From the NCBI GenBank assembly GCA_043228905.1, contig JBHGNT010000001.1:19778001-19842000 (forward strand): a stretch of 64,000 nt of DNA, read 5' to 3'. Source of the DNA: Azolla caroliniana (taxonomy: Eukaryota > Plantae > Polypodiophyta). The first letter of the stretch is position 1; the number at the start of each line of letters is the position of its first letter. Positions 23,507-64,000 of the stretch are shown here, one piece after another. Both the position numbers and the translations under genes were made by a program. The notes under the pieces are model-generated. The model did no database searches, was not told the origin of the DNA, and saw only the letters and a program-made list of their open reading frames with translations.

Positions 23507-24837
23507 CTTCGCAAGAAGGGGGAGCTTCCACTCCGGCCCGAGCTGTCAAAACGCAACCGAATGCGGATATTGAGGAAAGCTCGCCCACGACGAAGAAGAG
23601 TTGCGAAAGAAGATGTGTGAATTGGCTTCCACAAGCTGACAACTCACGAATTACGCACACAATTCCGACTATGAAGAGTATAGTGGAATGTACGGGCACA
23701 ACTCCGACTACGAAGATCGTGGCGGAATGTATGCACACAACTCCGACCGTGGCGGAATGTTCATGATGAAACATAGAGCAAACTCTATGTCGGCTTCTAC
23801 CTCAACTAGTACCCTCAATCCGGAGGATGTATGGTTTGTTGACTCAGGAGCCTCAAACCATATGACATCTCATAAAGAATGGTTTCTCGAACTTCAAGAG
23901 CTAGAGCTATCCGGTTATGTCGAAACTAGAGATGACACTACGCACCCGATTTAGCACATCGACAATGTTCCGTTCGGAGAAAGAGGTAAGCAAACATACA
24001 TTAAAAATGTCTTGCATGTTCCTACAATCACGAAAAACTTGGTCTCAGTCGGCCAAATGGTTGAGCAAGGGATGCAAGTACGATTCGACCAAGAAGGGTG
24101 CTTCATCGAAAAAGAGGGCCGAATCATTGCGCGCAGAAGAAGAGAGGGCCGGATATTCATTCTCGATTCACACGAGATGAAATCCGCCATGTTCGCAAAA
24201 AGCACGAAAGACGACTCCGACATAGATTTATGGCACAAGCGAATCAGCCACATCAATCTCAACAAACTCAAAGCAATGAAATCGAAAGGAGTCGTCATCG
24301 GACTCCCGACATTCAAAGAGAAGGAGATTGAAGGTGTATGTGAAGTGTGCCAATTCGGCAAGCAACACCGACACCCATTCCCGAAAGAGCGGAACGTGAG
24401 CAAAGGTCTACTCGATGTAGTCCATTCTGACGTATGGGGACCGACGCAGACGACGGATGCCGATATTATGTGCTCTTCATCGACGACTTCTCCAGGCACA
24501 CATGGCTCTATCCGATGCGGCAAAAGAGAAAAGTGTTTGGACACTTCCAAAGGTTTAAAAACGAAGTCGAAAAAGCTATTGGTCGTCATGTACGATGCCT
24601 TCGATCGGATGGTGGCAAGGAGTACTTCTGTTGGGGGGAGACAGGTCCCTCCGGATGGGAAGGGAGAAGAACAGTGCTGATGAACAAACTCGGCCGAGGT
24701 CGAAACCGGATGAGGAGTACCCGGCTATAGAGAGCCGGATGGTGCATACCCGATATGAACCGGATGAGGAGCACCTGGCTACGGAGAGCTGGATGGTGCA
24801 GACCCGGTATGAACCGGATGAGGAGTACCTGTCATGA

Positions 24838-24901
24838 GATGGCAAGACTCGAACCCATGACCTTGTGGTATATGGGTCGAGCTCTTAACCATCACACCAT
24901 C
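24838..24901 (-). ncRNA. tRNA-like A-box/B-box cassette, antisense in the chromovirus LTR U3 (second copy 30035-30098)
   Basis: Minus strand: A-box TGGTGTGATGG (24899-24889) and B-box GGTTCGAGTCT (24855-24845), with a 44-nt offset as in tRNA genes. Confidence 0.6.
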
Positions 24902-25330
24902 TATTGTAATTCATAGGATATTATTTTCATTTATGTTTTATTATAAGAAAGTAATGTATATTCCAGATTTCTCTGGAACATTCTAGAAGTTTCAGGATTA
25001 CTCATGACAACACTATAAAAGAAGGCACTAGGCATTATGTTGAACCAAATTGGTTCAACACCAGTCTTAAGCCTCTTAGCGATTTGTACTTATCTTTCAT
25101 ATAATATAAGAGCTGCTGTCATCATCCTCTCTCTCTCTCTCTCTCCTCTTCTCACTTCCTCTCTCTCGGGAATCTTACGCAGTCCCGTCCTCTTAGTACT
25201 AATAGTATTGTTCTTCTTAGTACTAATTCCATCTCTACTTTAGTACTATTCCTGACAGTTTGAACCAAATTTCCCTTTCCTCCAGCCTACATGTCGTTCT
25301 CCCTCATCCTCCTACCCTTTTCCCTATATT

Positions 25331-26503
25331 ATGGCTACTATTAGCGCCCAAGAATATCAATCCGTTTTCTCTGAGTTACAGTGCCTAAAAGAAAAGTTTG
25401 TTGCCCTGGAACAAGAAAACCAACGGTTGATAGGGGATCTGCAACAAATCGCTCTTGAAAAACAACAAATGCAACAATAACATGGGGAGTTAGCATTACG
25501 GGTACAACAACTCGAAGCAGCGTTGCAACAACAAGGATCAAGTCCCCAAGGATTTCATAAAGAGCCCAAGATTGGACTTCCTGTGAAATTTGATGGAACG
25601 TGATCGCAATTCCGGGGATTCCTTAACCAGGTACGCTTAGTCATCCAGATGCATCCTTCCCGATATCCCACTGATGCATCTCGAGTCGGCCTAATAGGCA
25701 CGTTACTTAGCGGCTCAGCCTTGGCATGGTTCACTCCGCTTCTAGAAAAACAATCCCCCTTGCTTAATAACTTTGAAGATTTTATTGGTGAGTTTAAAGC
25801 CTGCTTTGGAGATACCGACAACATCAGGACGACGATCAACAAGATCCGAAGATTGCGTCAAGGCGATCGTCCAGCCTCTACCTATGCGGCGGATTTCCGT
25901 CTACTCGCCTCAGATATTCCTTGGGATGATCAGGCCCTCATGGAGCAGTTTCACTACGGCTTGCGCAATGATGTCAAAGATCTGCTTTTAACCTTCCCCG
26001 AAGAACCAAAGTCTCTTACGGAGGCAATCAGTCGAGCGGTCCGATGCGACAACCGCCTTTTCGAACGGCGTTCGGAGCGTCAGTTACAAATACCACGCTC
26101 TCGACCAGAACCCACATACGCCTCAGTCACGGCTAAACCGTTTGCATGCGATGTACCTCAAGCCAATATTCCGACACCGATGGAGATCGACACCATGCGT
26201 CGACGCGGCCCGTTATTGGAAGAAGAAAAGCAACGACGACGTGCCAATCGATTATGCCTTTATTGCGGTGGACCAGGGCATATCGCCATCAATTGTCCCC
26301 ATAGGCCAAGAAGACAGGTAAATCAAATCGTCGCCTGTACTAAACCCGAGTCAATTCTTCCCTTCGGAGTGTCTGATAGTATTAATAATACTAATAGAGT
26401 GTCAGATAGTATTCATAGTACTAATAGCCCAAGTATCTCAAACAAATTTGAAATCCTTAGTCAATTAGATGAAGAGTTAAACGATCGAGTCCAGCCAAAA
26501 TAG
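25331..26503 (+). pseudogene. Gypsy gag (capsid plus CCHC knuckle) with two premature stops
   Basis: ATG 25331 in frame with ORF 25649-26503; stops TAA 25478 and TGA 25601; motifs PTPMEID and CLYCGGPGHIAINC. Confidence 0.9.
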
Positions 26504-29500
26504 GAGCCGTTGGGTTGGACAGCAGCCCTAGATCTGTACAGCCCATTAGTGGTTCCATTCCTTCCAAGCAAGTTAGCAATGTGTTCCTAGCCCAAGTCAT
26601 TGTTAGTACTAAAAGTACTCCCCCAGTACCCGTCCTAGCACTCTTAGATTCTGGAGCTAATTCCTGTTTCATGGATCGAAATTTTGCCCAAGCTTCTCAG
26701 ATATCCCTAAGAAAACTTCCTTGTCCCACATCTGTAGTAGTCATTGATGGTCGTCCCATTGCTTCCGGGAATATTGTAGAAGAATCAGAACCCATTCAAG
26801 TTGTCCTAGGTAGTTTTGTGTGTGTAATATCATTTAATATAATTAGTAGTCCAGAGCATCCCATTGTCCTAGGATTACCTTGGTTTGAATTACATAATCC
26901 AACCATAGATTGGAGAATAAGAGAAGTCCGCTATCGACCACCCCAAGAATCTACTCACCGAGTTTCGACCATTTCACTCCATCAATTACGCGAAGAAGGA
27001 CACAAGGAGGCAGTGTTCCTATTTGTAATATCAGTACATCCTTCCAGCACTATTAAGGACTCCTCAGTACAACTTCCGGCAAAATATCATCCTTATGCCG
27101 ATGTATTTGACAAGGTAAAAGCCAATACCCTTCCTCATCACCGTCCCTATGATTGTCCCATCGATTTACAACCAGGAACCGAGCCACCATGGGGACCAAT
27201 TTACAACTTGTCACCCACCGAGTTAGAAGTCCTTCGAGCCTACATAGAGGAGAACTTGGCAAGCGGGTTCATCCGTCATTCGAAATCTCCGGCCGGTGCA
27301 CCCATCTTCTTTGTCAAGAAGAAAGATGGCTCACTTCGTCTCGTCGTTGATTACCGCGGATTGAATAAGGTCACCATCCGGAATAGGTATGCACTTCCTC
27401 TTATATCAAGTCTTTTAGAATCAGTTAATGGTGCCAATTTTTTTACCAAAATCGATCTACGAGGAGCGTATAACCTCGTGCGGATCCGACCAGGAGATGA
27501 ATGGAAGACCGCCTTTCGCACGCGGTATGGGATTTTCGAGTATACTGTTATGCCGTTCGGCCTAACCAATGCACCCGCAGTCTTCCAACACATGGCAAAT
27601 GATATATTCAGAGACCTCTTGGATATCTGCTTGATCATCTATCTTGATGATCTATTGATTTATTCGAAGACCCAGCAAGAGCACGATTCTCATGTACTAT
27701 TAGTACTAAAGCGACTCCGCGAGAATGATCTTTATGCCTAGCTAGAAAAATGTAGCTTTGACTGCAAGCAAGTGGAATTTCTAGGCTACGTCATCTCCTC
27801 AAAGGGCATCGCCATGGATCCAGCTAAAGTCCAAACTGTACTAGAGTGGCAAATTCCACGGTCGGTACGAGATGTACAATGTTTTCTAGGTTTTGCTAAC
27901 TTCTACCGTAAGTTTATACAGGATTACTCGAAGATTATCTTACCCCTCACACAACTTACGAAGAAGGGCCAAGCATTTCTTTGGTCCATTGAAGCAGATA
28001 TGGCTTTTCGGCATCTTAAGAAAGCCTTTACATCAGCATCGATTCTAGCTCATGTGGATACTAGCAAACCATTCATCATGGAGGCCGATGCTTCCGATTT
28101 CACCCTCGGTAGCATCCTTTCTCAACAAGGAGATAAAGAAGAATTGCATCCGGTGGCTTTCCATTCGCGCAAATTCGATGTTGCGGAAATCAACTATGAA
28201 ATACATGACAAGGAGTTATTAGCCATCGTGGATTCATTTGTGCAATGGCGGCATTTCTTGGAGGGCTCTCAACATCAGGTCGTTGTCTTTACTGATCATA
28301 CAAATCTTGCTTATTTCCAGAACGCTCGCGTACTAAATCGACGGCAAGCTCGGTGGGCGCAATTCCTCACGCGTTTCGACTTCAAAATCACATATCGACT
28401 GGGGAAGCAGCAAGGAAAAGCAGATGCACTATCATGGTGTTCATATCTTGCACCTCGTCCTGGTGATCCAACATTTGATAATCAAAAGCAAGTAATCTTG
28501 GGACCAACACGGTTGCACACGACGTGGATTTTTCACACCCCGATAGATTCACAGATTACCGACGACATACGTGCAAACTTGAAGATGGATAGTTTTGCTC
28601 AAAACATCTTGGCGCACATTGATACTTCTCGGGCATCCTGTTCTCAGTCTCAACAACCAGGTATTGACTATCGACTATTCGAATATCATGATGGTTTGTT
28701 ATTCTTTAAAAAGCGCGTATATGTCCCCGATTGCTCCTGTCGCCTTCAAATCGTCCAGCATTGTCACGACACCCATACGGCGGGACATTTCGGTAGTACT
28801 AATACGTTGGAGCTAGTGCAACGATCTTGTTGGTGGCCCCACATGCGCCGTTTTGTCGACGACTACGTTCGGACCTGTGATGCTTGCTGCCAAGCAAAGA
28901 TGCCACGACACCATCCATATGGCTTGTTGGAACCCTTACCGATTCCAAGTAAGCCGTGGCAATCTATTTGTCTTGATTTTATCACAGATCTGCCGGTCTC
29001 GCAGGGGTTCGATGCTATCTTAACCGTCGTCGATCGATATACGAAGATGGCACATTTTGTTCCATGTACTAAGGCCATCACTAGCGAGGAAACCGCCGCC
29101 CTAGTCATGCGTGAGGTATTCCGGCATCATGGCCTCCCAGACAGTATCATTAGTGACCGAGGACCGCAATTTGTCTCCAAATTTTGGCAGCATCTCTTCA
29201 AGATGCTCAAGGTCTCTTGCAACCTCTCCTCCAGCTACCATCCTCAGACCGATGGGCAGGCAGAACGAACAAACCAAACGTTGGAGCAATATCTCCGGTG
29301 TTTCCTGAGTTATCAACAAGACGATTGGGCCGAGATTCTCCACTTTGCGGAGTTTGCGTATAATAATGTTGTTCACTCCTCGACTCGAGTCTCCCCATTC
29401 TACGCTTATACCGGTTCTCATCCTCGCTGGTCGGTGATCGACACCCCGGAGCTACCTACCAATCCTAGTGCCGGGGATCATTTGGAGAGACTACGCAAGA

Positions 29501-30015
29501 TCCAAACAGATCTCTCGACTCATCTTCGTCATGCTCAACAGACACAGAAGACTTACGCGGATTGTCATTGGCTTCCCTCCTCTTTTGCCATCGGAGATCG
29601 AGTATGGCTCTTACGTTGTCACATCAAGACTACTCGACCGTGCGACAAGTTGGATTATCGACGACTCGGTCCTTTCCTTATTACGGGTAAAGTTAATAAT
29701 GTCACATTCCGCCTTGATCTCCCTCCGCAGCTTCAGATACATCCGGTTTTCCATTGTTCTCTTCTTGAACCTTATAAAGCAAACATCATTCCCGATCGTG
29801 TTACACCACCGCCGCCCCCGCTAGAGTTGGACGCCGGCCCGGAGTATGAAGTTGCTACCATCCTCGATTCCAAACTTATTCGCAACAAACTTTATTATTT
29901 GGTCGATTGGGTTGGTTATAGTCCGAGTGAACGCACTTGGGAACCTATCGAGCAAAAGTATCCGGACAAACCCGGTCCACAATCAGCGCTGACTCGTTCC
30001 ACTCGTCGTCTTTAA
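26476..30015 (+). pseudogene. Gypsy pol (PR, RT, RH, INT, chromodomain) with one premature stop at 27739
   Basis: ALLDSGANSCF, IYLDDLLI, EADASDF, HDTHTAGHFG, SDRGPQF, HPVFHCSLLEPY, chromodomain EYEVATILDSKLIRNKLYYLVDWVGYSPSERTWEP. Confidence 0.95.
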
Positions 30016-30284
30016 GGGGGAGATAGTGTCATGAGATGGCAAGACTCGAACCCATGACCTTATGGTATATGGGTCGAGCTCTTAACCATCACACCATCTA
30101 TTGTAATTCTTAGGATATTATTTTCATTTATGTTTTATTATAAGAAAGTAATGTATATTCTAGATTTCTCTAGAACATTCTAGAAGTTTCAGGATTACTC
30201 CTGACAACACTATAAAAGAAGGCAGTACTTAAGCCTCTTAGCGATTTGTACTTATCTTTCATATAATATAAGAGCTGCTGTCAT

Positions 30285-30320
<36 letters not shown>

Positions 30321-31616
30321 CTCACTTCCTCTCTCTCGGGAATCTTACGCAGTCCCGTCCTCTTAGTACTAATAGTATTGTTCTTCTTAGTACTAATTCC
30401 ATCTCTGCTTTAGTACTATTCCTGACAGTACCCGGCTACAGAGAGCCGGATGGTGCAGACCCGGTATGAACCGGATCAAGAGACATATTCGTAAATATGT
30501 TTCTGAGAATCCATCGAGGCTATATTTGTAAATAGCCGAAAAGTCATATTAGTATAAATATGACTTAGGGCAAACTTTTAGTTATGTGTCGTTGTCATTT
30601 CCTGTTGGTGCAAGAAGAAGAGAGAGCACGTAATAGTGTACAGAGAGAGAGAGAGAGGAAGAGGTTGTAGCCTCTGTTGTAACCGCCGCCTGTGGCGAAG
30701 ATCGTGAGCACGAGGTCGTTGCCTCCGTGAACTCACTGTTTTGTACATTCCAACATAGTGATAGTTTGCAACCTGTGGGCTGCCGTGGTTTTTCCCTTAG
30801 TTTGGGTTTTCCACGTAAACATCTTGTGCACCCTTTCTCTCCTTTGTGTTGTGTTTTTCGTTTCTTGTTTTCTGTGTATGATTCTAAGCTCGGTTGTGGC
30901 CGAGCGTTGTGCATAAGGAGCGTTGAGTTTCCGTCAACTTCTTGGATGATTTCACGACGTATCTTCGAAAGGAAGGAATTCGGCAAGAATTCACTTGCCA
31001 ACACACTCTGCAATAAAACGAAGTAGCCAAGCGCAAAAATCGGCACATCCTCGAAGTAGCACGGGCCATGATGAACGAGAAGCATATGCCCAAGTTATAT
31101 TGGGCCGAAGCTGCAAATACGACCGTCTACCTAATGAACCGGTGCACATCATCTGGAGTGCACGAGGTCACTCCACACGAAAAATACTTCAGAAAGAAGC
31201 CGGACTTATCGCACACCCGGATATTCGGCGCAATAGCATACGTGCACATACCCGACGAAAAGCGGCAAAAGCTAGATCCAAAGTCGGAGAAATGTATCCT
31301 CGTAGGATACTCACTCGAACAAAAGGGGTACAAATGCTACAACCCATCTACCCGAAAAGTTCGAGTAAGTCGAGACGTCGTGTTCGACGAATCCACATCC
31401 TGGTACGCACCAGAGAAGATTCCGACTTCGACCCCGATCGACGTGGAACCGGCCGAACAAGAGTGAGAAGAGATCGCCTCGAAGACATGTTCGAAGATAG
31501 CCCGATTACCACAAGACTAAGTGGGCCACAAGAGCCCCCGAGCGATCAAAGCACATCACGGCCTAGCCCGAAGATGGACAAAGGCAAGGCAAAAATGGCG
31601 GAATACGAAGACGATC

Positions 31617-34519
31617 GCTTCGGGTTCCTATTAAAGAATGAAGAAGAACGATTCCGTGGGATGCTAGAGCGACATGGGAGAGCATTTGCATTTACATCAA
31701 AAGAAATAGGGTGCGTTGATCCGAAGATAGTGGAGCCGATGGTGATCTTCACGATTGACCATGTGCCGTGGAACCTGAAGCCGATTCTGGTGCCACGGGC
31801 GCATATTCCGAAAGTCATCGACTTGCTCAAGGAGAAGGTGGCGATGGGGATTCTAGAGCCATCAAACGCTCCGTACTCAAATCGATGGTTTACAGTTCCG
31901 AAGAAGAATGGGTCACTCCAATTTATTCAAGATTTGCAACTGGTGAACAAGGTCACGATCCGGAACTCTGGTGTCGGTCCGATAGTGGACGAATTTGCGG
32001 AAGCATTTTCCGGTCGGGCGTATACTCCATCAGAGACCTATACTCTGGATATGACCAATTCTAACTAGCCGTGGAGAGTCGAGACATCACTACCATGCGG
32101 ACACCGATAGGATTAGTCCGTATGTGCACACTACAACAAGGCGCAACAAACTCGGTCACACATATGGTGAATGCAATGAACAAGGTGCTCCGGGACTGCA
32201 TTCTGGAGATAACAATGCCATTCCTAGATGACATTCTGATAAAAGGATGCGCGGTGGAAGAAAAAGATGAGACTACAGATGATCGGGGATGCCGACAGTT
32301 CGTAGTCGACCATATTCGCGATTGCGAGAAAGTGCTTCGAAAGTTAGAAGATGTGCACCTAACACTTTCCGGGGAGAAATCGGCATTTGGGCAAGAAGAA
32401 ATATTGGTAGTCGGACATCTATGTGGGCCCTACGGCTGAAGACCGTCACCGACCAAGATCAATGCAATTCAAGCTATGAAAGAAATATGCGAGTCACAAT
32501 CTGAAGTCCGAAGGTTTCTCGGAGCATGTGCATTCTACCACATATGGATTCCGCACTATGCACATATTGCAGACCCACTCTATGACTTGTTGCGGAAGGG
32601 TAAGAAGTTCAAATGGAAACCGGAGCATACCAAAGCTGTGAAGAAGCTCAAGAAATCACTATGGAGGGCAAGAGCACTAAAGAAGCCGAACTATGACCGA
32701 TCGATCATAGTAACGGTTGACACAAGTCCAACCGGAATCGGATGGGTCATCAATCAAGCTGATCCGGATGGTTCACGATATCTGATCCGATTCGGAGCAA
32801 AGATTCTCAACGAAAGGCAACACAGATATGCACAAGTCAAAAGAGAATTATGCGGAGTCGTGTCGGCAATCAAAACGGATCGAGATTATTTGATCGGAGC
32901 CGAAGTAGAGATCGAAACGGATTGTCTTCCAATACTCAGGATGATGCGGTGTTGCACGATACCGGATGTGGCTATGCTAAGATGGATTGCATATGTTAAG
33001 TCGCTTAATCCGGAGGTACGCCACATCTCTAGAAAAGACAACGTGGTAGCGGATATGTTGTCAAGGGCGCGGTTCGATGATGACATAACCGAATCTGATA
33101 ATGAAGAAGTTTCCGAAGACTACTTTGCTTCGGAGCACATATGCCGGGTGAACGTAATTCGAGAATTCCGGGAAGGGACAATAAAGAGAAGAGAGCCGAG
33201 ATCCAAAGTAAGAAGCGGCAAGTCCGAAAGTTCTTCTTGAAAAATGGATTAATATGCAGGGAGCCGAAAAGACCGGATGGCATACCACTTCGGGTAGTCG
33301 GGATGAAAGAGCAACGAAACCGGATAATGTTCGAATTTCACGAATTCGATTGGGCTGGACATCGAGGAACGTGGACAACTTTTGTGAAAATCAAACAAAA
33401 ATATTGGTGGAAGAACATGTACAAAGATATAGCGGAGTTCACGGAAAGCTGCGAGAAGTGTCAAATCTACTCCGGAGTTCGACACCGAGATGAGTTACAT
33501 CCGACATTCTCACCGACAATCAACTTCAAATGGATGGTTGATATTGTAGCCATGCCAACCGGAATCAGACAAAAGAAGTACTTGGTGTTAGCTCGGGAAG
33601 ATCTCACAAACCAAGTAGAAGGTCGGGCATTACGAAGGAAAACGTGTTCTGCAGTGTACCAATTTCTTTTGGAGGAGTTGTTTTGCAGGTACGGGTGCGT
33701 AGGACAAGTGATTGCAGATCGGGGAGAACTCGACTCTGATAAAGCTAAGGAATTCTTCACCAAACATGGAGTTCGGTTAACACTGACAACGACATACAAT
33801 CCAGAAGCCAACGAGGACATAGTCCGATCGTTAAAGCACTTGCGAAGGCATGCGATGGAAGGGTGAAGGATTGGCCGCAGATGCTTCCGTATGCACTATG
33901 GGCAGATCGGACGATGCATAGCTCCGTAACTGGTTACATGCCGGTAGAACTCATGACCGGACAAGCACCAGTAATGCCAATGGAAACCGCGATCGTGACA
34001 TGGACAATGCTACCGTGGAAGGAAGAGATTAGCTGGGAAGAACTACTAGCGGTCTGGATACGACAACTAGAGGGAAGACCGGAAGACATAGCGGAAGCAA
34101 TACGCCGACAACAAGAAGCGTGATTCCGGAATAAAAGCCGGTTCGACACAAAGCACCGACTACGACCACGGAAGATTGAAGAAGGAGATTGGGTGATTGT
34201 CTACGACAGTAGTTTGGATCATCAACATACAACGATGCGGAAGTTCGCGAAAAGGTGGTTCGGGCCATACGAGGTTCGGAAAGTTTTCGACAACGGAACT
34301 TACCGACTATGCGAGTTGGATGGAACGATGCGACGAGTGCCTATAGCTGGGAAACGGGTGAAGATTTTCAAGAAGCAGACTGATGTGATCCTAGACAAAA
34401 CCGACAAGAAGGAGCAATCGGACGAAGATCGCAGTGATCTGGAAAGCGAAGAAAGTGGATTACAACTCATAGTTGACTTAAGGGGAGAATCGGAGGAAGC
34501 TTCGGATGAAGGTGAATAG
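31617..34519 (+). pseudogene. Non-chromovirus Gypsy pol (RT, RH, INT), degenerate and 5'-truncated
   Basis: YSNRWFTVPKKNG, PFLDDILIKG, VDTSPTGIGW, WAGHRGTWTT, IADRGELD, FAKRWFGPY; joined abruptly to Copia E1 integrase at about 31616. Confidence 0.9.
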
Positions 34520-34575
34520 CAACCATCGGGGACTTCGGCACATACCGGAGGATGTGCGGGTTCGGAGGGGGCGAG

Positions 34576-35272
34576 TGTCGTAGTGTGAATCACACACTAT
34601 GTGAAATATGTAAAATACTATATCCAATTTAAAGTACGCATAATAAATAAAATAAAATATTAAAAATATTTATTACGTGCATAGGGCAAGATTCAAACCT
34701 TGTACCTCCACATAGACAAACCCCAACCTTACCATTGTACTAACTTATCCTAAGTGTTCTAAATATAGATTTAATGCACATAAGACCTTTATTTATGCCT
34801 ACCTTTAAAAGGTAAGCCATGCATTTTTTAGAATGCGTGAATACTTTATTTATAAGAAAAATGTACACCAATAAAAAATGACTCGTGCACATCTAGTGAG
34901 CATGAGCACTATATTTAGGAAATAAAAGCATAGTGTAAAAAGGCAACTCATGCACATTTAGTGTGCATGAACACTTTAGAAAAAGCATGAAGCTATGCTT
35001 AGCCTCTTCCATCTAAGGAGGAGAGAAAGATGTATGGGGGGTTGTTGCTTATTTTACAAGGGTGGATTAATATAATATAATCGTGGGATTCACGAATTTG
35101 CTAACTATTTTTTCTCTCTTAATCTGAGTAATCACTAATACACTATACTCGTGGGATTCACGAGTTTTTCATATCTTTCTTTCTTACAATATATTTCATA
35201 TTCTTAATTTCCTTAGAATTTTCTTTTGTCCTAGTCCAAAAACCTCAGTGGTTCCCACCCGATTCACGCAAC
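34576..35272 (+). mobile_element. 3' LTR of the non-chromovirus Gypsy element
   Basis: Starts TGTCGT after PPT GGAGGGGGCGAG; the right end is approximate (..GATTCACGCAAC). Confidence 0.75.
34683..34745 (-). ncRNA. tRNA-like A-box/B-box cassette, antisense in Gypsy LTR U3
   Basis: A-box TAGTACAATGG (34742-34732) and B-box GGTTTGAATCT (34699-34689), 43-nt offset. Confidence 0.5.
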
Positions 35273-39600: not shown

Positions 39601-42351
39601 TGCACTCCCTTGACTTCAGGTAGAAGCTTCTGGTCAGCTAATAGATGCATTCCTTTCTCGCTCATGTGACCAAGCCTCTTATGCCATAACTCCCTGCTCG
39701 AGTCGGTTGCCAAATTTACTTTCGACTTGCCTAGTCGAGCATGCATCATATACAATGTGCCTTGTTTTTGTGCTCGGGCCACTATCATATTTCCTCAGCA
39801 GAACCTCCACTTGTCGTTCCGAAAACTACCATTGTAGCCTTCGTCATCTAATCTTCCACTTGATATTAGGTTCAACCTGATATCGGGGACATGTCAAACT
39901 TCCTTAAGAGTCAACCGACACCCTGTCGACGTTGTGAAGCAGACACTTCCGACTCCGGCTATCTTGCACTGTCCATTGTCACCCATCTTTACATGACCAT
40001 GGTCCTCGGCTATGTAAGTCAAGAAATACTCTGTCGACGGAGTTATATGGAAAGATGCACTGGAGTCGATCACCCAAGTGCATTCTTCACTAGCTAGGTT
40101 TGCACTTGTCTATTCACAGAGGAACAAAAGTTCTTCATTACTCGTAGCAATGGCCGAAGAGCCCTTTTCAACTTGAATCTTCCTGGGTTCGACATTATTA
40201 CCGACACTCTTGTCCTTCTTAAGATGTCGTCAGTCCTTTTGGAAATGTCCAGGCATTCCACAATAAAAGCATGTTAGCTTACCTCTGGACTTCGATCTCG
40301 CTTGGGACTTTTCCCTTCTTTGTGGACTCCTTTGCCGGTTCCTTCCTTTGTCCGAATGTTGTATCACGTTCACATCTGCCTGGGACAGAACACCCTTGTC
40401 CTTCCTCCTCATCTCCTCGTTCAAGATACTTCTCTTTACCACTTGTAGATATAGGCTCTCTTCTTGGCACGAGGTGCTGAGAGTCACCACTAGATTCTCC
40501 CAACAATCCGGCAAGGTGCATAGTAGCAGGATGGCTTACATTGCATCCTCAAGGGGGAACTTGGTTGCTGCAAGTTGATTTACGTACCCCATGACTATGT
40601 TGATGTGTTCAACAATGCTCTCACCGTCTTTGTATGTCAGCCGTACGATCTTTCTCATCAATGAGGTTTTATTAAGGGCATTCTTCCTCTTGACATATAG
40701 AACTGACAACTTCTACCACATCTCGTCAGCATTCGTGTCGTTCACCACATGCTGAAGGACACTTACATCGATGCACACTGTCAGATCGTTGTCACCGCCT
40801 TTTTGTTAAGAAGTTTCCATTCTGATTGTAATACCCCCATGTGTATTTTTGCTCTGTCGATCGGCTCTTACAAATCTTTGACGATGAGAAGGTCTTCCAT
40901 CTTAATCTTCCAGACCGCAAAGTTTTGAGAGTTTAGAACTATCATACTTGGGAAGCCACTAACACCTCGTTCCATGCTTGTGTTGGGAAACAGGTCCCTC
41001 CGGATGGGAAGGAAGAAGAACAGTGCCGAAGAAGAACAGGTCCCTCCGAAACCGTATGAGGAGGACCCGGCTACGGAGAGCCGGATGGTGCAGGCCCAGT
41101 ATGAACCGGATGAGGAGTACTCGGCTACGGAGAGCCGGATGGTGTAGGCCCGGTATGAACCGGATGAGGAGGACCCGGCTACGGAGAGCAGGATGGTGCA
41201 GGCCCGGTATGAACCGGATGAGGAGTACCCGGCTACGGAGAGCCGGATGGTACTGACCCGGTGAGAACCGGATGAAGAGACATATTCGTAAATATGTTTC
41301 TGAGATCCCATCGAGGCTACATTTGTAAATAGTCGAAAAGTCATATTAGTATAAATATGACTTAGGGCAAACTTTTAGTAACTGTTGTTATTGTCATTTT
41401 TCTTTGTTGGTGCAAGAAGAAGAGAGAGCACGTAATAGTGTATAGAGAGAGAGAGAGAGAAAGAGGTCGTTGCCTCTGTTGTAACCGCCGCGTGTGGCGA
41501 AGATCTGTGAGCACGAGGTTGTTGCCTCAGTGAACTCACTGTTGTACATTCTCACATAGTGACAGTTTGCAGGCTGTGGGCTGCCGCGGTTTTTCCCCTA
41601 GTTTGGGGTTTTCCACGTAAACCTCCTGTGTATTATTATTTTTCCTCTCCACTGTGTCGTGCATTTGTTTCCCGTTTTCTGCGTATGAAAAGAAGCTCGG
41701 TTGTGGCCGAGCGTTGGACATAAGGAGCCTTGAGTTCCCGTCAGCTTGCACCTCACACTTTGATACCAGTCTGATGGGATTGAGTGGTCAATCCACAATA
41801 CATATATTGAAAGGTACTCAACACAGAATAGAAAACAACAAGATGAACAGAAAGTATAGTGCATAGATTTACGTGGAAACCCTAAAATGGGAGAACACGA
41901 CTTCACTATACAGTGGATGTACAAGGGAGAAGATTACAACACTCTCGACTATGGAGTGTATAAGCCTTACATGGCTCTTGGCGTCTGCTGTGACGAACAC
42001 AACTATGACGCCGCTCTCACACTCTTCTCTCTCTTTGTCTCTCACTTTGTGTCTCTCTTTGAGCACAGAGACTAATTGCTTATTCTGTTCAACACTACCT
42101 ATGTTTTTGCCCTAGATGTATTTATACTCATACATTATATAGGCTATTTAGAAGTGTAGCCCCCACTACACATCCTTACAATTATTATTATTACAATAAT
42201 AATAATTGATAGTTAATCAACCAACTCCCTACTGTCAACTCTTCGATTCTTGGTACTCGACTTGAATAGTTGGCTCCTCCTTGTCTTCGACTGTCATCTC
42301 TTCTAGGCCCGAACAGTCGACTCCTCCCACTAAAGGGACATATTCCCAACA
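36647..42351 (-). mobile_element. Copia family C-related copy C2 with both LTRs, heavily degenerate
   Basis: LTRs 36647-37242 and 41772-42351; TSD TTTCG/TTTTG; PBS TGGTATCAAAGT 41757-41768; gag-pol fragments 40975 to 37253 (LLLYVDDMLIVG, LWHKRLGH). Confidence 0.9.
40981..41743 (+). mobile_element. Solo LTR of Copia family A with ~4 copies of a 54-bp tandem repeat
   Basis: TGTTGGGAAAC...CCCGTCA; TSD GCTTG on both sides; repeat units start at about 41048, 41103, 41157, 41211 and 41265. Confidence 0.92.
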
Positions 42352-57375: not shown

Positions 57376-60247
57376 TGTAAAAGATTATGTGTGGAAGCAA
57401 TAGAAAACCAAACACACAGAAAATACGCAGGTTTAATGGAGAGCTTGAATATACACAGTACACGGGAGAGACAGAGAGAGAACACACGAAAAAATCAATT
57501 CAAAAAATACTAACTCTTTGTACATACACCGTGCTCAGTGAGCACCTTTTATACAAGCCCTGACAATCGGGCTGACACAAGTACTGACAGTACTTGACTG
57601 CTCATAAATGAGCCTCAACACTTACTTCCAAAACTATTCCTTATGAGGAATATCTCTCTAACAGCCTTTCCGTTTACGCACTGATACGGCCTCTCGTTAC
57701 GCACCGGTTTGTGTATCCATTTTATGCACTGGTCTGGCCTAACCGATCGGTCCCAACCGATCCGGTCCTCGGCTTGCTCAGCCGATCTGGCCGATGTTGA
57801 GCTTGTCTCTCAACACTCCCCGTTAAGCTCAACTTGAGGCTCTTCGGGATCTTCCGGATCACTGCTCCGGTTCCTCTTGGCTCCACGCCTTGCTCGCGCT
57901 CCTCGGCCTATTCGACTCCGTGCGCTTCAACCCTTCTGGTCGGCTTGTCTGCTCCCACGGCCCTTCACAGCTCCCTTGCCGTCGCGGTGTTGGCGCTTCT
58001 CTTGCTGCCTTCTTTTCTGCTTGGCCCTCGGTTGATTCAGTATATCCGAATGAAACACCCGAACCGACTCGGCTACCTCCGATCGGTTTTTGGTCTCGTC
58101 TGAGTTGGCTGTCTCCAACTCGTCTTCGGTCTTCATGCTCTTGACGACATCATCTCCCCCATGCTTGGATGGCTTCGGCTCTTTCTTTCGGCTGCTCCCC
58201 TTATGTTCTCTTTTGGACTCTTCCGCGGATCCGCCTTCGGCTTCTTCAGTCGATCCAAAGTCGAATTCGTCATCGGACTCGGTGTCGCGGTCTTCATCTT
58301 TCGGAACTTCTCTCCCTCTTCCGTGGTCATTCGGGATGTCTCTCCCCCTCAAGTTCGCCACGTCGAGGTGACACAACCCAAGCGTACTCGAGAATTGCCT
58401 CAACTTGTCCAGACCAAGAGGCTTGGTGAAGATGTCGGCAGTTTGCCGATCGGTCGGAACATACTGAAGTTCGATTTCACTAGAAAGGACACGCTCACGG
58501 ACAAAATGGTAGTGCACCTCAATGTGCTCGGTCCGTGCGTGGAAAATAGGGTTCTTCGCGAACTGGATGTTGCTGAGGTTGTCGTAGTATATCATTGTCG
58601 GATCGGACACCTCCTCTTGCAGGTCCTTAAGTAGCCGCTTCACCCATATGGCTTCGCATGTCGCGACAGCCGCTCCTCGGTACTTAGTTGCGGTGCTCGA
58701 CCGTGCAACTAACGACTGCTTCTTACAGCTCCACGCTATCGCGGCACTCCCAAGAGAGAACACGTATCCGGATGTGGATCGGCGATCGGCGGCATTGCCA
58801 ACGCAATCAGCATCAGTGTAGCCGACCAACTCCGAAGCTGTACCGGTTCGATATAGCAGTCCCCGGTCCTTAGCTTATGTACCGCAGTACGCGTTGCGCA
58901 CACTGAAGGTGCTCCTCGGTAGGTCGTGCCATGAAGTGACTGACCACCCCGACCGGATAACTGAGATCGAGTCCGGTGATTGTCAAGTAGATAAGGCTTC
59001 CGACAATTTTTCGGAACCTCGTCAGGTCGCATACCTTTTCGGAATTGGGGCGAAGCTTGACGGTTCTATCCAGAGGAGTTGAGACGGACTTACAATCGGC
59101 CATCCCGAATTTGAAGAGCATACTCAGCACATAATGGCATTGGCTGATCAATATGCCTTTGGGGGTACGGATCACTTCGATCCCGAGGAAGTAATGAAGA
59201 TCCCCCAGATCCTTCATGTCGGACAATGCCGCAAGCTGGAGCTTCACGCGGTCGATTTCACCTAGGTCGGCGCCGGTGATGACCAAGTCATCAACATATA
59301 GTAAAATACTGACCGGACCAAGTCGACCTTTCTGGATGAACAGGGAAGAGTCCGATTTTGACGTTGCAAAGCCCATCTGATGCAGTTGTTGCGTGACCTT
59401 TGCGTTCCAGGCATGCGGGGCTTGCTTAAGCCCGTAAAGGGACTTCTTCAATCGGCACACTACCGACGTGTTCGTTCAGGAGTGAAATCCGGGGGCTGTA
59501 CGATGTACACCTATTCCTCAAGCTCACCTTGTAGGAACACATTCTTTACATCCATCTGATGTAAGTGCCACCCGTTTGCTGCAGCTACCGCGAGCAAAAC
59601 ACTGACGGTCGTCATCTTCGCGACTGGCGCAAACGTCTCATCGTAGTCAATGTCGTGTTGTTGCATGTAGCCTTTCGCTACTAACCGGGCCTTGTATCGG
59701 TTGATCGAGCCATCGGTGTTGTACTTGACCTTGTACACCCACCTACATCCGATCGGCTTCACACCCTTCGGTGCATCAACGAGGTCCCAGGTCTCATTTT
59801 CTGCCAATGCGTTCATCTCTTCCTCCATCGTGGCGCGCCAATTCGTATCCTTAGCCGTTTCTGTGTAGCTCTCCGGCTCACGCACTTCCGCTACATGGGT
59901 TATGTACGCATAATGATGCGCCATGTATTCGTTGTATCTTCTGGCAGGTAGATCGGCGTAATCGGTCATTAGCCAATGTCGAGGTCTTCACGGCTGACGT
60001 AGACTTCTCTCCTGAAGACCCGTCACCAGCTCCCTCGCAGTCGGACTCGCGTCGGTCTGACTCGTTCCTATCCATGCTGGAATCCGACACCTTCTTCTTC
60101 CCTTTCTCTTTGCGCGTAAGCCGTTGTCGTGACGATTTTTGGCTACGGTGTGAAACCGAGTGAGACGAATAAACCAAGGATGTGCAACATTGCACATGCA
60201 CTTAGCAAATAAACCTAGCCTAGTGGCACTTGAGTTCATACAGAGGG

Positions 60248-60313
60248 GTGCAAGCAAGGTTTGAACCTTGCACCTCTAAGATACAAGATAATTGCCTTAC
60301 CACTAGGACAACT
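60248..60313 (-). ncRNA. tRNA-like A-box/B-box cassette, antisense in the gag-only element's LTR U3 (second copy 63122-63187)
   Basis: A-box-like TGTCCTAGTGG (60310-60300) and B-box GGTTCAAACCT (60267-60257), 43-nt offset; GCAAGG-TTCAAA-CCTTGC hairpin. Confidence 0.55.
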
Positions 60314-60811
60314 ATCATATAGTGTAGATTTTATGTATTTCCTTTTCATATACAAATTATAGACGAAACAACCATAGAAAACCATGTGCACAAAACCATG
60401 GTTTTAAACCCATGGTTTGTGCATGACATAAGCAAAACCGTGTGCACAAAACCATGGTTTTAGCCCATGGTTTTGTGCATGTCACGAGCATGGAAAGACC
60501 TATAAAAGCCTCTAGTTGGGCTTGTGTAAGGGGGGCTCAATATGTGATATCACCAACACCATTATCATCAATATAAATTATATTTGTCTTTATCTTCTTC
60601 ATTATTTTCTACTTCTCAAGTGTACAAGCTTTCTTCTTCTCAAGTGAACAAATTCCGTCTAATCTTACATTGATCGTCATCTCTTCGATAATTCCGCGAA
60701 CGTCCTCCCCAGTCCAAGACCCCGGTGGTCGCTCGAGTAGCACACGCACGCGCGAATCTTCGCGACATCATTTGGTGAACCCGACGTGAAGAGCAGCAGG
60801 GGAGGACGAAG

Positions 60812-62908
60812 ATGGATGGCGAATATCTCATGGAGGCAATGTCAAGAAGGATGATGGAGTTTCTGAGAGAAGGGAAAAGAAGAAATGAAGCCCAACAAGC
60901 CGTCGACAAGGTAGTCGAACGAATGAGCTATTTCAACGGTGCCGAAGTCCAAAGTTTCCTAAAAGTCTACAATGCGGAGATGGATTCAAGAGGTGTGGAC
61001 AAAGCTATGAGGCTAGAGTACTTTTGTCGGGTGGTGTCTCAACCGATCTTCAAAGATGTAAAAGAGCTTCTAGAAGCTCATGATTCGTGGGCGACTTTCG
61101 AGAAGGCTCTATTGGAGGAATATGGCTATGAGAGACTGAAGGGACAAGATCGACGCATTTTCGACCAATGGGTGACATCAGCGAAGACCCACCAAGGTGC
61201 GACACAAGCATTCGTAGACTTCGAGCATCATTTTTCTCAATTGTCGGAGCGGGAACAAAGATTGGTGGGGGTCGATAAGGTCCTTATGTTCGTGAAGTCA
61301 ATCGATCGAATGGAAAGGATGGCGATCGGTCTCAAACTCGAAGAAGATGATGGTGCAAATGGCCTCATCGAGGATTGGAGCAAAGTGGAAAGTGTATGCC
61401 GACTACACGATAAGGGGCAAGCGAGAATATCGACGACAACAAGACGGCCCATGAGGGACGATCGAAGAGGGACGAGATGCAACAACGCGCCACCAACAAA
61501 AGAAATGAAGCTTAAAAGGGAGACAAAACCGAGGCGAATGGTGATCGAGGAAGAAGAGACCTCCCAACAAATGCGGGTTAATGAAGTGGCCGATACAAAG
61601 GCTCTGGTTCGGTATGACGGTACTGAGAGAGAAGGTGTGAAACAAGTCACCTTCTTGTCTTACAAAGAAACGACGGCGAAGGAGGAGGCCGATGACTCGA
61701 GGACGGCGAACGCCACTTCGAGGGAGGATAAATGTTTCGGAACACGCATTGTGTACGAAACATCGGGTGATGACGGCGCAAGCATGAGAAAAGCTTGCAT
61801 GATCGAGGGAGAAAAAGTGTTTGAGTCTGAAGAGATTGAGGAGGTAGCCATGACAAACGACATCGAGTCGGAGGTGGCTATGGACGAGTCGACAACGGAT
61901 AGCCATGTCAAGACTTTCTCCACGATTGTTCCAGAGACTTCGGCGGTTGCGCCTGTGTGCCAACGTGAGACCGAAGAGACGGAAGGTGGTGACGGGAAGA
62001 CGAAGGCCCAACACAAGGAAGAAGAAGATCGAGGAAGAAAGGATATCCCCACACCTATTCTAGAGACTTCGGCGGTTGTGCACGTACGCCAACGTGAGAC
62101 CGGAGAGACAGAATGTGTGGACAAAAAAGAGGACGACCGGAAGGGCGATGAAGAAGACAAGGTAAATGTAAATGAACGAAGGGATTCCTTCACACCGGTT
62201 CCGGAGACTTCGGCAGTCGAGATCGTGTGTCGGCATAAGACCGAAGATAAAGGAGGTGGCGAAGAGGAGACAATATGGCTCGAGGCGAGCATACACGGAG
62301 GGAAGGATATGGCCGACGTGGAGGCCAAGGATGAAGCTGCGGTTCAGTTCGATGGAGAGGTTGCATGCGGGAAGGAAGGAAGAGTCGAGAACCGGTTGAA
62401 CCGGAAGACGATCCGGCCGGGATTCCGACCCGAACGAAGGAAGATCCACATGGGAGCCGATCGACAGGGGCCGACCCGGCCGAAACCTGATTCGGCGAAA
62501 ATCGATCGGACGATTCCGATCCAAAAGGGGGCCAACCCAGCCAGAATCAATCGGTCGAGCCCGACTCGGGGAAATGTGAATGCAGATGAAGGCCAACCAA
62601 GCCAAGAAGCGATCGGTGGAGACCGATCCAGACAAGGGCAAACCCGGCCTAATCGGAGATCGACACGAACGATCTACAATACCCAGTTGAAGACGGTGAG
62701 CGTGAGGAGTGGCCAGGAGTCCAATCGAAGGACACGCGCGGTGGACGAAGGAAGAGCGGTCGTATCGACGACATCGTTCGGTAGATCTACTATAACCGAT
62801 CGGGGAAGAAGGTGTGAGCGCCGGATATGGTGGATCGGGTGGCTACGGTGGTTCGGTTGGAAAGATTGTGCATACTCGAAGTGGAAGACGAAGTCGACGA
62901 GCGTGTAG
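60812..62908 (+). CDS. Intact 698-aa Gag-like protein with a long acidic, repeat-containing C-terminal extension
   Basis: Gag-like N-terminus (FNGAEVQSFLKVYNAEM...SWATFEKALLEEYG...FDQWV); three P-ETSAV..VC..ETE repeats at about 61921, 62051 and 62191; no CCHC, PR or RT motifs seen. Confidence 0.8.
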   Translation: MDGEYLMEAMSRRMMEFLREGKRRNEAQQAVDKVVERMSYFNGAEVQSFLKVYNAEMDSRGVDKAMRLEYFCRVVSQPIFKDVKELLEAHDSWATFEKALLEEYGYERLKGQDRRIFDQWVTSAKTHQGATQAFVDFEHHFSQLSEREQRLVGVDKVLMFVKSIDRMERMAIGLKLEEDDGANGLIEDWSKVESVCRLHDKGQARISTTTRRPMRDDRRGTRCNNAPPTKEMKLKRETKPRRMVIEEEETSQQMRVNEVADTKALVRYDGTEREGVKQVTFLSYKETTAKEEADDSRTANATSREDKCFGTRIVYETSGDDGASMRKACMIEGEKVFESEEIEEVAMTNDIESEVAMDESTTDSHVKTFSTIVPETSAVAPVCQRETEETEGGDGKTKAQHKEEEDRGRKDIPTPILETSAVVHVRQRETGETECVDKKEDDRKGDEEDKVNVNERRDSFTPVPETSAVEIVCRHKTEDKGGGEEETIWLEASIHGGKDMADVEAKDEAAVQFDGEVACGKEGRVENRLNRKTIRPGFRPERRKIHMGADRQGPTRPKPDSAKIDRTIPIQKGANPARINRSSPTRGNVNADEGQPSQEAIGGDRSRQGQTRPNRRSTRTIYNTQLKTVSVRSGQESNRRTRAVDEGRAVVSTTSFGRSTITDRGRRCERRIWWIGWLRWFGWKDCAYSKWKTKSTSV

Positions 62909-64000
62909 AGGAACTCGGTTGATCACCGTTGCCAAAGATCTCACCTCTTCACCTTTCTCGGCACATACCGGAGGATGTGCGGGTTTGGTGGGGGTGGATG
63001 TCGTGACGATTTTTGGCTACGGTGTGAAACCGAGTGAGACGAATAAACCAAGGATGTGCAACATTGCACATGCACTTAGCAAATAAACCTAGCCTAGTGG
63101 CACTTGAGTTCATACAGAGGGGTGCAAGCAAGGTTTGAACCTTGCACCTCTAAGATACAAGATAATTGCCTTACCACTAGGACAACTATCATATAGTGTA
63201 GATTTTATGTATTTCCTTTTCATATACAAATTATAGACGAAACAACCATAGAAAACCATGTGCACAAAACCATGGTTTTAAACCCATGGTTTGTGCATGA
63301 CATAAGCAAAACCGTGTGCACAAAACCATGGTTTTAGCCCATGGTTTTGTGCATGTCACGAGCATGGAAAGACCTATAAAAGCCTCTAGTTGGGCTTGTG
63401 TAAGGGGGGCTCAATATGTGATATCACCAACACCATTATCATCAATATAAATTATATTTGTCTTTATCTTCTTCATTATTTTCTACTTCTCAAGTGTACA
63501 AGCTTTCTTCTTCTCAAGTGAACAAATTCCGTCTAATCTTACATTGATCGTCATCTCTTCGATAATTCCGCGAACGTCCTCCCCAGTCCAAGACCCCGGT
63601 GGTCGCTCGAGTAGCACACGCACGCGCGAATCTTCGCGACACCGTCTCCTCGGCTTCCTACGCGGGGAATGCACGGCCGAGTCTCCACTACTCGCCGGCT
63701 CTTCATTGGATTGGTCGAACTAACTCAGTCTTCCATTCGGTCCACTTAACTAAAACGAAATCGGACTCTCTTCGCAGGTCCCGATTTCAGGCTCATCCGG
63801 AGGCATCTCAGTCTTGCTGACCTCATCGTCAGAACTCAGATTGGAGGTGAGGTCCGGAGTCGGAGGCAAGTACCAGGACGCGGACTCGTCAAACACAACG
63901 TCGCGGCTCACGCGCACTTGTTTGGTGCGTGGTTTATAACACTTATAACCCTTCTGCTTGTCTGAGTAACCAACCAAGATACATTTCTCGGCCTTTGCGT

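What the first reader, a model, noticed from the sequence alone, without database searches (positions are those of the whole stretch)
24838..24901. Antisense tRNA-like Pol III cassettes in the U3 of three different Gypsy LTR families
Seen on the minus strand: chromovirus LTR TGGTGTGATGGTTAAG...AGGTCATGGGTTCGAGTCTTGC (24901-24838, 30098-30035); non-chromovirus LTR TAGTACAATGGTAAG...AGGTACAAGGTTTGAATCTTGC (34745-34683); gag-only element TGTCCTAGTGGTAAG...AGGTGCAAGGTTCAAACCTTGC (60313-60248, 63187-63122). All have a 43-44 nt A-to-B offset as in tRNA genes, lie in U3, and point outward from the element. The LTRs show no other obvious similarity, and I saw no such cassette in the Copia LTRs. Established: Cassandra TRIMs carry Pol III-transcribed 5S domains in their LTRs, and TFIIIC-bound B-boxes act as chromatin barriers in yeasts. 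Inference: these Gypsy elements carry a tRNA-mimic module acting as an anti-silencing insulator, a Pol III antisense RNA source or a primer-related RNA. I know of no description of this system.
Basis: partly seen in the sequence, partly recalled or inferred. Interest (0 to 1): 0.8.

Follow-up and report, generated by a model that had tools for sequence, protein, structure and literature searches.

The report
Outward Pol III promoters in LTRs
Two unrelated lineages of jumping genes in what is likely a fern keep the two promoter boxes of a tRNA gene, back to front and at fixed spacing, at the outer edge of their end-repeats while the DNA between and around the boxes has turned over, so these elements likely carry their own RNA polymerase III landing site, which would shield their promoter from silencing.

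Summary
All five A/B-box pairs sit where stated, antisense, in U3, with offset 43-44. The host is likely a fern. E1 is a self-priming Tcn1-type chromovirus; E2 and E3 are Phygy-type. Relatives picked by integrase, not by the cassette, carry it in 8 of 8 close LTRs, 2 of 13 intermediate and 0 of 18 distant ones; 0 of 12 Copia LTR stretches have it. Across 8 Tcn1-like families, pairwise identity is 0.59 (A block), 0.94 (AGGT) and 0.83 (B box), against 0.31 in the spacer (chance 0.28). It is no tRNA: acceptor and anticodon stems pair at chance. It is no Ty3-type primer site: E1 self-primes and E3's cassette does not match its primer. Best reading (0.45): a DNA-level type-2 Pol III promoter that likely binds TFIIIC/TFIIIB and would keep the LTR open in heterochromatin. 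Binding and transcription are untested. Closest known: Helenus TRIMs, which are short, non-coding and sense-oriented. Earlier AI notes report LTR-borne Pol III boxes in other, fungal-like genomes, none on this sequence.

The parts
24830..25257 (+). E1 5' LTR (TG...CA), Tcn1-type chromovirus; left TSD 24825-24829
24889..24899 (-). E1 5' LTR A box
   Evidence: most copies laid carry the canonical A at tRNA position 14 (place 24893)
24860..24863 (-). E1 AGGT block (tRNA variable-loop positions 44-47), nearly invariant across families
24845..24855 (-). E1 5' LTR B box, 15 bp from the LTR end
24910..24949 (-). AT-rich stretch upstream of the A box (85% AT); inferred TFIIIB site
   Evidence: 75-95% AT in 10 families vs 50-80% at a similar place in 10 LTRs without cassette
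25014..25020 (+). E1 Pol II TATA box
25050..25058 (+). E1 self-priming segment at the inferred RNA 5' end, complementary to the PBS
25258..25270 (+). E1 PBS, self-priming type, not tRNA-complementary
25604..30015 (+). E1 gag and pol (protease, RT, RNase H, integrase, Tf2-like SH3, chromodomain), with stops
30014..30026 (+). E1 polypurine tract
30027..30427 (+). E1 3' LTR; right TSD 30428-30432; 7 mismatches in 394 aligned bases to the 5' LTR, plus a deletion
30042..30096 (-). E1 3' LTR cassette (A 30086-30096, B 30042-30052)
31620..34520 (+). E2 pol, 5'-truncated, non-chromovirus (Phygy-type), broken
34576..35259 (+). E2 3' LTR (3' end approximate); PPT 34564-34575
34689..34742 (-). E2 cassette (A 34732-34742, AGGT 34704-34707, B 34689-34699); T-run 22 nt after the B box
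60125..60767 (+). E3 5' LTR, identical to the 3' LTR over 643 bp; 4-bp TSD of NCGN type at 60121-60124 and 63642-63645
60257..60310 (-). E3 5' LTR antisense cassette (A 60300-60310, B 60257-60267)
60216..60268 (+). E3 second, sense-strand A/B pair sharing the palindromic B box; likely an inverted duplication of the cassette
60773..60790 (+). E3 tRNA-type PBS (tRNA-Trp: label recalled, from no call)
60779..62908 (+). E3 single long ORF (709 codons, no Pfam hit; gag-like by position only), no pol
62999..63641 (+). E3 3' LTR with antisense cassette 63131-63184 and sense pair 63090-63142; PPT 62987-62998

Best explanation
The cassette is a tRNA-derived type-2 RNA polymerase III internal promoter (A box, AGGT, B box at fixed spacing) kept by selection at the outer U3 edge of Tcn1-type and Phygy-type Gypsy LTRs; it likely acts as DNA, binding TFIIIC and placing TFIIIB on the AT-rich stretch inside the LTR, which would hold a nucleosome-poor barrier between flanking heterochromatin and the element's Pol II promoter. 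Shown: position, orientation, spacing, selective conservation, loss of the cloverleaf, presence in two lineages. Inferred: TFIIIC/TFIIIB binding; a short outward Pol III transcript as a by-product; the barrier effect. The outward orientation fits because, with the B box 15-48 bp from the LTR end in the Tcn1 group, only this orientation keeps the upstream TFIIIB site inside the LTR, where it travels with every copy. Origin is likely a captured tRNA gene or SINE head, gained or swapped at least two or three times.
For: Motif-only conservation over 8 Tcn1-like families (28 pairs): A block 0.59, AGGT 0.94, B 0.83, against spacer 0.31 (expected 0.28), upstream 0.35 (0.35), downstream 0.29 (0.27); between Tcn1 and Phygy (16 pairs) 0.59, 0.97, 0.76 vs spacer 0.24. 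Offset 43-44 in all 10 families. A matrix trained on the three window cassettes scores 10 of 39 locus LTRs at p<=0.003 antisense, none of those 10 on the sense strand. In E2 copies from 4 runs the B box shows one variable place of 11, where most copies carry the canonical C56, AGGT 0 of 4, spacer 8 of 16, and one subfamily has an unrelated 16-nt spacer of the same length between intact boxes. E1 subfamilies show different words that fit the A-box consensus (loose ends). Stems are lost: acceptor 27 of 70 (shuffle 29.5), anticodon 21 of 50 (21.2), so selection is not on an RNA fold. The A box is kept, which a fission-yeast tDNA barrier needs, and that barrier works in either orientation (PMC2040200, passages). 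The window is almost wholly nested LTR elements.
Against: No binding, chromatin or RNA data were obtained. Barrier activity of tDNA is shown in yeasts, and I read nothing that shows it in plants. Related elements thrive without the cassette (L012, L014, L011, L016, L018-L020, L028, L080; SM-Tcn1 LTR by eye), so it is not essential. AGGT is more conserved than the A box although it is not part of the textbook B box; this is unexplained. The A box is weak in L017 and L053, and G10 is replaced in most E2 copies of two runs. The 19 bases downstream of E2's B box show no listed variant either; with them counted the box-versus-rest contrast (5/31 vs 18/43, p=0.02 without them) weakens, though they lie beside a masked edge. 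A T-run terminator inside the LTR is present in only 4 of 10 families. The Phygy side rests on two families.
Confidence: 0.45

Rival explanations
1. The Pol III transcript is the working product: a short outward or antisense RNA (from the 3' LTR it would run over the PPT into the integrase end) that tunes silencing or copy number.
For: Both boxes, tRNA-gene spacing and an AT-rich upstream are kept, which suits real transcription. T-runs lie 11-22 nt after the B box in 4 of 10 families.
Against: Only the boxes are conserved, not the transcribed body or its fold. Read-through length before the first T4 varies from 11 to over 400 nt, so no common RNA product.
Confidence: 0.17
2. The cassette is a landing pad or decoy for Pol III-targeting integrases, as Ty3 targets tRNA genes.
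For: Earlier unchecked AI notes report this for LTR-borne boxes in a fungal-like genome. Ty3 targeting is established knowledge (recalled; listing only).
Against: No insertion lies upstream of any of the 5 window cassettes or in the 60 bp upstream in 7 locus families. E1 sits in a Copia LTR repeat and E3 in Copia coding DNA with no cassette near. Metagenome contigs collapse copies, so the test is weak.
Confidence: 0.1
3. The motifs are read by something other than TFIIIC (a Pol II factor, or Gag/integrase on RNA or cDNA ends), or the Pol III complex dampens rather than protects the Pol II promoter.
For: AGGT is the most conserved block and lies outside the textbook B box; the cassette is close to the cDNA end in the Tcn1 group.
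Against: Two separate blocks match the A and B consensus at tRNA-gene offset in two lineages with unrelated proteins (about 24% identity) and different distances to the end (15-48 vs 113-131 bp).
Confidence: 0.13
4. Ty3-like bipartite primer site: U3 of the genomic RNA pairs with the D and T arms of a host tRNA during reverse transcription.
For: Antisense D-loop and T-loop words in U3 of a Gypsy element are the Ty3 layout (PMC5371799, passages).
Against: E1 and 5 relatives have a PBS complementary to their own LTR 31-36 nt below the TATA (9-12 nt, covarying between families), so no tRNA primer. E3's PBS implies primer positions 61-65 CACGT, its cassette has CTTGC. T stems pair only 1-4 of 5, so the cassette is not the copy of an intact T arm.
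Confidence: 0.07
5. Neutral relic of a SINE or tRNA insertion carried along in U3.
For: Proposed origin of Helenus (PMC10886601). T stem still slightly above chance (30 of 50 vs 21.3). A stand-alone look-alike lies outside any LTR in L019.
Against: Spacer and flanks are at chance identity while boxes and spacing persist over integrase branches up to 0.5 changes per site.
Confidence: 0.08

Closest known systems
Helenus TRIMs / TRIMp3 (Kojima 2024, PMC10886601; whole main text and searched supplement passages read)
   Same: tRNA-derived sequence in both LTRs, conservation centred on boxes A and B, no functional tRNA, no role as primer; one plant family (Selaginella).
   Different: Helenus are 311-1263-bp non-coding elements, and in the consensus sequences I saw the boxes face inward (sense), to make the template RNA. 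Here they face outward, in 3.5-5.6-kb coding elements that keep a TATA box and, in E1, self-priming. The paper argues autonomous elements must use Pol II and expects no such sharing.
Cassandra TRIM (as described in PMC10886601; primary paper not read)
   Same: Pol III internal promoter inside plant LTRs, ferns included.
   Different: 5S-derived (A, IE, C boxes), drives the element's own RNA, non-autonomous.
Ty3 bipartite PBS (PMC5371799, passages)
   Same: U3 sequence complementary to tRNA D and T arms in a Gypsy element.
   Different: Ty3 matches its own primer tRNA; E1 uses no tRNA primer and E3's cassette does not match its primer.
Fission-yeast centromeric tDNA barrier (PMC2040200, passages)
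   Same: A and B boxes plus upstream TATA, independent of orientation, at a heterochromatin edge.
   Different: A host tRNA gene at a fixed locus with tested activity; here a non-folding module carried by the transposon, activity untested.
Tcn1 and Phygy clades (PMC6317226 passages; PMC2864245 passages and supplement 3)
   Same: Chromodomain and self-priming (E1); no chromodomain and NCGN target duplication (E3).
   Different: Described from moss and club-moss; the passages read mention no Pol III boxes, and the SM-Tcn1 LTR shows none by eye.

Membership tests
Helenus / TRIMp3 | tRNA-derived A and B boxes in the LTR | tested here: met
Helenus / TRIMp3 | short non-coding TRIM (screen limit 1000 bp) | tested here: not met
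   E1 5.6 kb with gag-pol, E3 3.5 kb with a 709-codon ORF
Helenus / TRIMp3 | promoter faces the internal region and makes the template RNA | tested here: not met
   antisense in all 10 families; Helenus sense in the passages seen; E3 alone has an extra sense pair
Helenus / TRIMp3 | Pol III transcription | not testable with these tools
   no RNA data obtained
tRNA gene | cloverleaf stems | tested here: not met
Ty3-type bipartite PBS | element primes from a tRNA | tested here: not met
   E1 self-primes; E3 does have a tRNA-type PBS
Ty3-type bipartite PBS | U3 segment matches the primer's T arm | tested here: not met
   E3: positions 61-65 differ between PBS-implied primer and cassette
tRNA-derived SINE insertion | body, simple-repeat tail and target duplication around the head | tested here: inconclusive
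   none seen by eye in the rows; an old insertion would have lost them
tDNA chromatin barrier | TFIIIC and Pol III occupancy, block of heterochromatin spread | not testable with these tools
   needs ChIP and reporter tests
Tcn1 chromovirus (E1) | chromodomain on integrase | tested here: met
   PF00385
Tcn1 chromovirus (E1) | self-priming PBS instead of tRNA PBS | tested here: met
   same layout seen by eye in SM-Tcn1
Tcn1 chromovirus (E1) | placement with reference Tcn1 in a pol tree | not tested
   the tree held no named reference
Phygy (E2, E3) | no chromodomain; NCGN target duplication | tested here: met
   no chromo in E2 ORFs scanned or relatives; E3 TSD CCGT; motif per PMC6317226
Phygy (E2, E3) | placement with reference Phygy in a pol tree | not tested
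   reference sequences could not be read

The most novel reading that the evidence does not exclude
Fern Gypsy retrotransposons have repeatedly captured a stripped-down tRNA promoter and use it as a portable, outward-facing Pol III chromatin barrier that lets them stay transcribable inside heterochromatin: a cis anti-silencing device borrowed from host tDNA insulators and shared between unrelated lineages, which may help explain LTR success in giant fern genomes.
Probability: 0.35. Interest if true: 0.85.

Novelty: new variant of a known kind. Interest (0 to 1): 0.68.

Why it matters
Pol III boxes in LTRs were known from tiny non-coding elements that use them to make their own RNA. Here they are selected in long coding elements that cannot use them that way, and in two lineages of one host group. 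If they recruit TFIIIC as a barrier, this is a transposon-borne insulator and a direct way to test whether tDNA barriers work in plants, with many genomic copies and natural cassette-less sister families as controls. It would also scatter TFIIIC sites across fern genomes, with likely effects on chromatin layout.

Tried and rejected
No whole genome is held, so no genome-wide copy test was possible. ARAGORN: 0 tRNAs in the window and in 60 of the loci, so no host tRNA set to compare. Rfam: no tRNA-like hit to E 10. Viral collection scans with both integrases found no relative. The prokaryote-genome scan gave 3 contaminant-like Phygy-type contigs; only L080 has an LTR, without cassette. Sequencing runs: no RNA holder listed. 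Loose box scans were not above chance. Of 79 metagenome loci, 40 had no recognisable LTR start or too little LTR and were left out of the per-LTR test; whole-locus scans covered them and found no strong hit. LTR starts of L008, L017, L023 and L080 were placed by eye; starts in distant loci and the 12 Copia stretches are unverified. L023 (p 0.043) and L014 may be relics and were not counted. The tree is the quick version; the careful search did not finish. Considered and rejected: the cassette RNA as minus-strand primer (priming at the U3 edge could not rebuild the LTR; inference); confusion with the PPT-less, tRNA-Arg-end lineage noted elsewhere in this genome (E1-E3 all have a PPT). Ten literature searches found no report of antisense A/B boxes in autonomous LTRs; subscription papers, Repbase entries and the large supplements of PMC6317226 and the .doc supplements of PMC2864245 could not be seen and may bear on novelty.

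Full report
Setting. The window is a nest of LTR retrotransposons beside a PPR gene whose best named relatives are mostly from the ferns Ceratopteris and Adiantum, so the host is likely a fern. No whole genome is held. E1 (24830-30427) has gag, pol, a Tf2-like SH3 and a chromodomain, a 5-bp target duplication and LTRs differing at 7 of 394 bases. Its PBS is complementary to its own LTR 36 nt below the TATA box, as in 5 of 5 relatives checked (11-12 nt, changing together between families). That is the self-priming reported for Tcn1 (PMC6317226, passages). E2 is a 5'-truncated non-chromovirus whose named relatives are liverwort elements. E3 has identical LTRs, one long ORF, a tRNA-type PBS and a 4-bp NCGN duplication, the Phygy trait. 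E2 and E3 share a 21-nt signature before the PPT. The labels Tcn1-type and Phygy-type rest on these traits, not on a tree with references.

Observation. The five cassettes are as described. A strict box scan gives 8 hits against 0.85 in 40 shuffles; looser scans are not clearly above chance. A profile made from 7 cassettes outside the window finds exactly these five sites. New here: each E3 LTR also has a sense-strand A/B pair that shares the palindromic B box, likely from an inverted duplication. No tRNA is called by ARAGORN or Rfam.

Distribution. I fetched 79 metagenome loci by integrase similarity. In 39 an LTR start with at least 100 nt was found; 40 were left out of this test. A matrix trained on the three window cassettes scored the antisense strand at p<=0.003 (floor of 300 shuffles) in 10 of 39: 8 of 8 at 61% or more integrase identity, 2 of 13 at 50-57%, 0 of 18 below 48%. 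None of 12 Copia LTR-end stretches and not the one outside Phygy-type LTR (L080) scored. The 10 loci and E1 make 8 Tcn1-like families. On a quick integrase tree of 37 rows, 10 of 11 positives form one branch (SH-aLRT 98) and L017 sits among negatives. With the Phygy-type families this means at least two or three gains or transfers, or one old gain with losses. Whole-locus scans found one more strong hit, a stand-alone copy outside any LTR in L019.

Selection. Across the 8 Tcn1-like families, mean pairwise identity is 0.59 in the 16-nt A block, 0.94 in AGGT, 0.83 in the B box, and at chance in spacer (0.31 vs 0.28), upstream (0.35 vs 0.35) and downstream (0.29 vs 0.27). Between the two lineages it is 0.59, 0.97, 0.76 and 0.24. 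The offset is 43 or 44 in all 10 families. Contigs of 4 public DNA runs laid on E2 show one variable place of 11 in the B box, where most copies have the canonical C56, none of 4 in AGGT, 8 of 16 in the spacer, and a subfamily with an unrelated spacer of equal length. Against this: G10 is replaced in most E2 copies of two runs, and 19 bases beyond the B box list no variant either. On E1, most copies have the canonical A14, and diverged subfamilies use other A-box-conforming words (only the 40 best-supported rows were shown).

Not a tRNA, not a primer site. In tRNA register the acceptor pairs 27 of 70 (shuffle 29.5), anticodon 21 of 50 (21.2), D 22 of 40 (17.0), T 30 of 50 (21.3, p 0.013), and predicted folds differ between families. 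The kept positions are loop letters, as in a promoter. Ty3 has U3 segments that pair with its primer's D and T arms (PMC5371799, passages), the strongest look-alike. But E1 needs no tRNA primer, and E3's cassette differs from the primer its PBS implies.

Mechanism. From established knowledge, A and B boxes bind TFIIIC, which places TFIIIB upstream (PMC2040200, passages). Upstream here is 75-95% AT in all 10 families, against 50-80% at a similar place in 10 LTRs without cassette. In the Tcn1 group the B box is 15-48 bp from the LTR end, so only the outward orientation keeps the TFIIIB site inside the LTR (inference). The Pol II TATA lies 115-190 bp inward. A bound complex would stand between the flank and the Pol II promoter. 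In fission yeast such a barrier needs the A box and Pol III and works in either orientation. I give this 0.45; a functional antisense RNA 0.17; another reader or a dampening role 0.13; a landing pad 0.10; neutral relic 0.08; tRNA pairing 0.07. No step beyond sequence conservation is shown. The strong AGGT conservation is unexplained.

Known systems. Helenus TRIMs carry tRNA-derived boxes in LTRs (PMC10886601, whole text), but are short and non-coding and, in the supplement passages seen, sense-oriented. These elements fail two defining features and are not members. The same paper notes that other Repbase LTRs resemble part of a tRNA without describing them, so scattered cases may be on record. 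Ten searches found no account of this layout. Earlier AI notes mention LTR-borne boxes in fungal-like genomes, one read as a neutral relic and two as landing pads; none covers this sequence, and I tested only the landing-pad idea, weakly and without support.

Verdict. Real, selected and shared by two lineages; a new variant of Pol III-promoter-bearing LTRs with a different layout and probably a different job. Interest 0.68.

Noticed in passing
window 60216-60310 and 63090-63184: E3 LTRs hold a convergent double cassette: sense and antisense A boxes flank one palindromic B box, likely an inverted duplication.
   Followed up: partly
L019 14367-14418 (minus): Stand-alone cassette look-alike followed at once by a T-run, outside any LTR, in an AT-rich plant-like contig; may be a worn tRNA gene or SINE head.
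   Followed up: partly
window 25030-25065 vs 30220-30230: E1's 3' LTR lacks the palindrome that holds the self-priming segment present in the 5' LTR.
   Followed up: no
PMC2864245 supplement 3 (SM-Tcn1): By eye the SM-Tcn1 sequence has a 13-nt self-priming match between PBS and LTR, although the paper reports no evidence for self-priming.
   Followed up: no
L011 4015-4630 and L016 2981-3530: Tcn1-like elements with a related extra stretch of about 550-620 nt, apparently coding, between integrase and PPT; a similar stretch follows the PPT-like signature in L080.
   Followed up: no
window 24650-24883 and 40996-41283: Copia LTR family with a 54-nt tandem repeat; E1 is inserted inside this array.
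   Followed up: no
window 60378-60474: Duplicated inverted repeat in E3 U3, between the cassette and the TATA box.
   Followed up: no
window 1-1527 (minus): 5' part of a PPR gene with fern-like best hits, next to the retrotransposon nest.
   Followed up: yes
L080-L082: Plant-type Gypsy contigs inside prokaryote genome records, likely contamination.
   Followed up: partly
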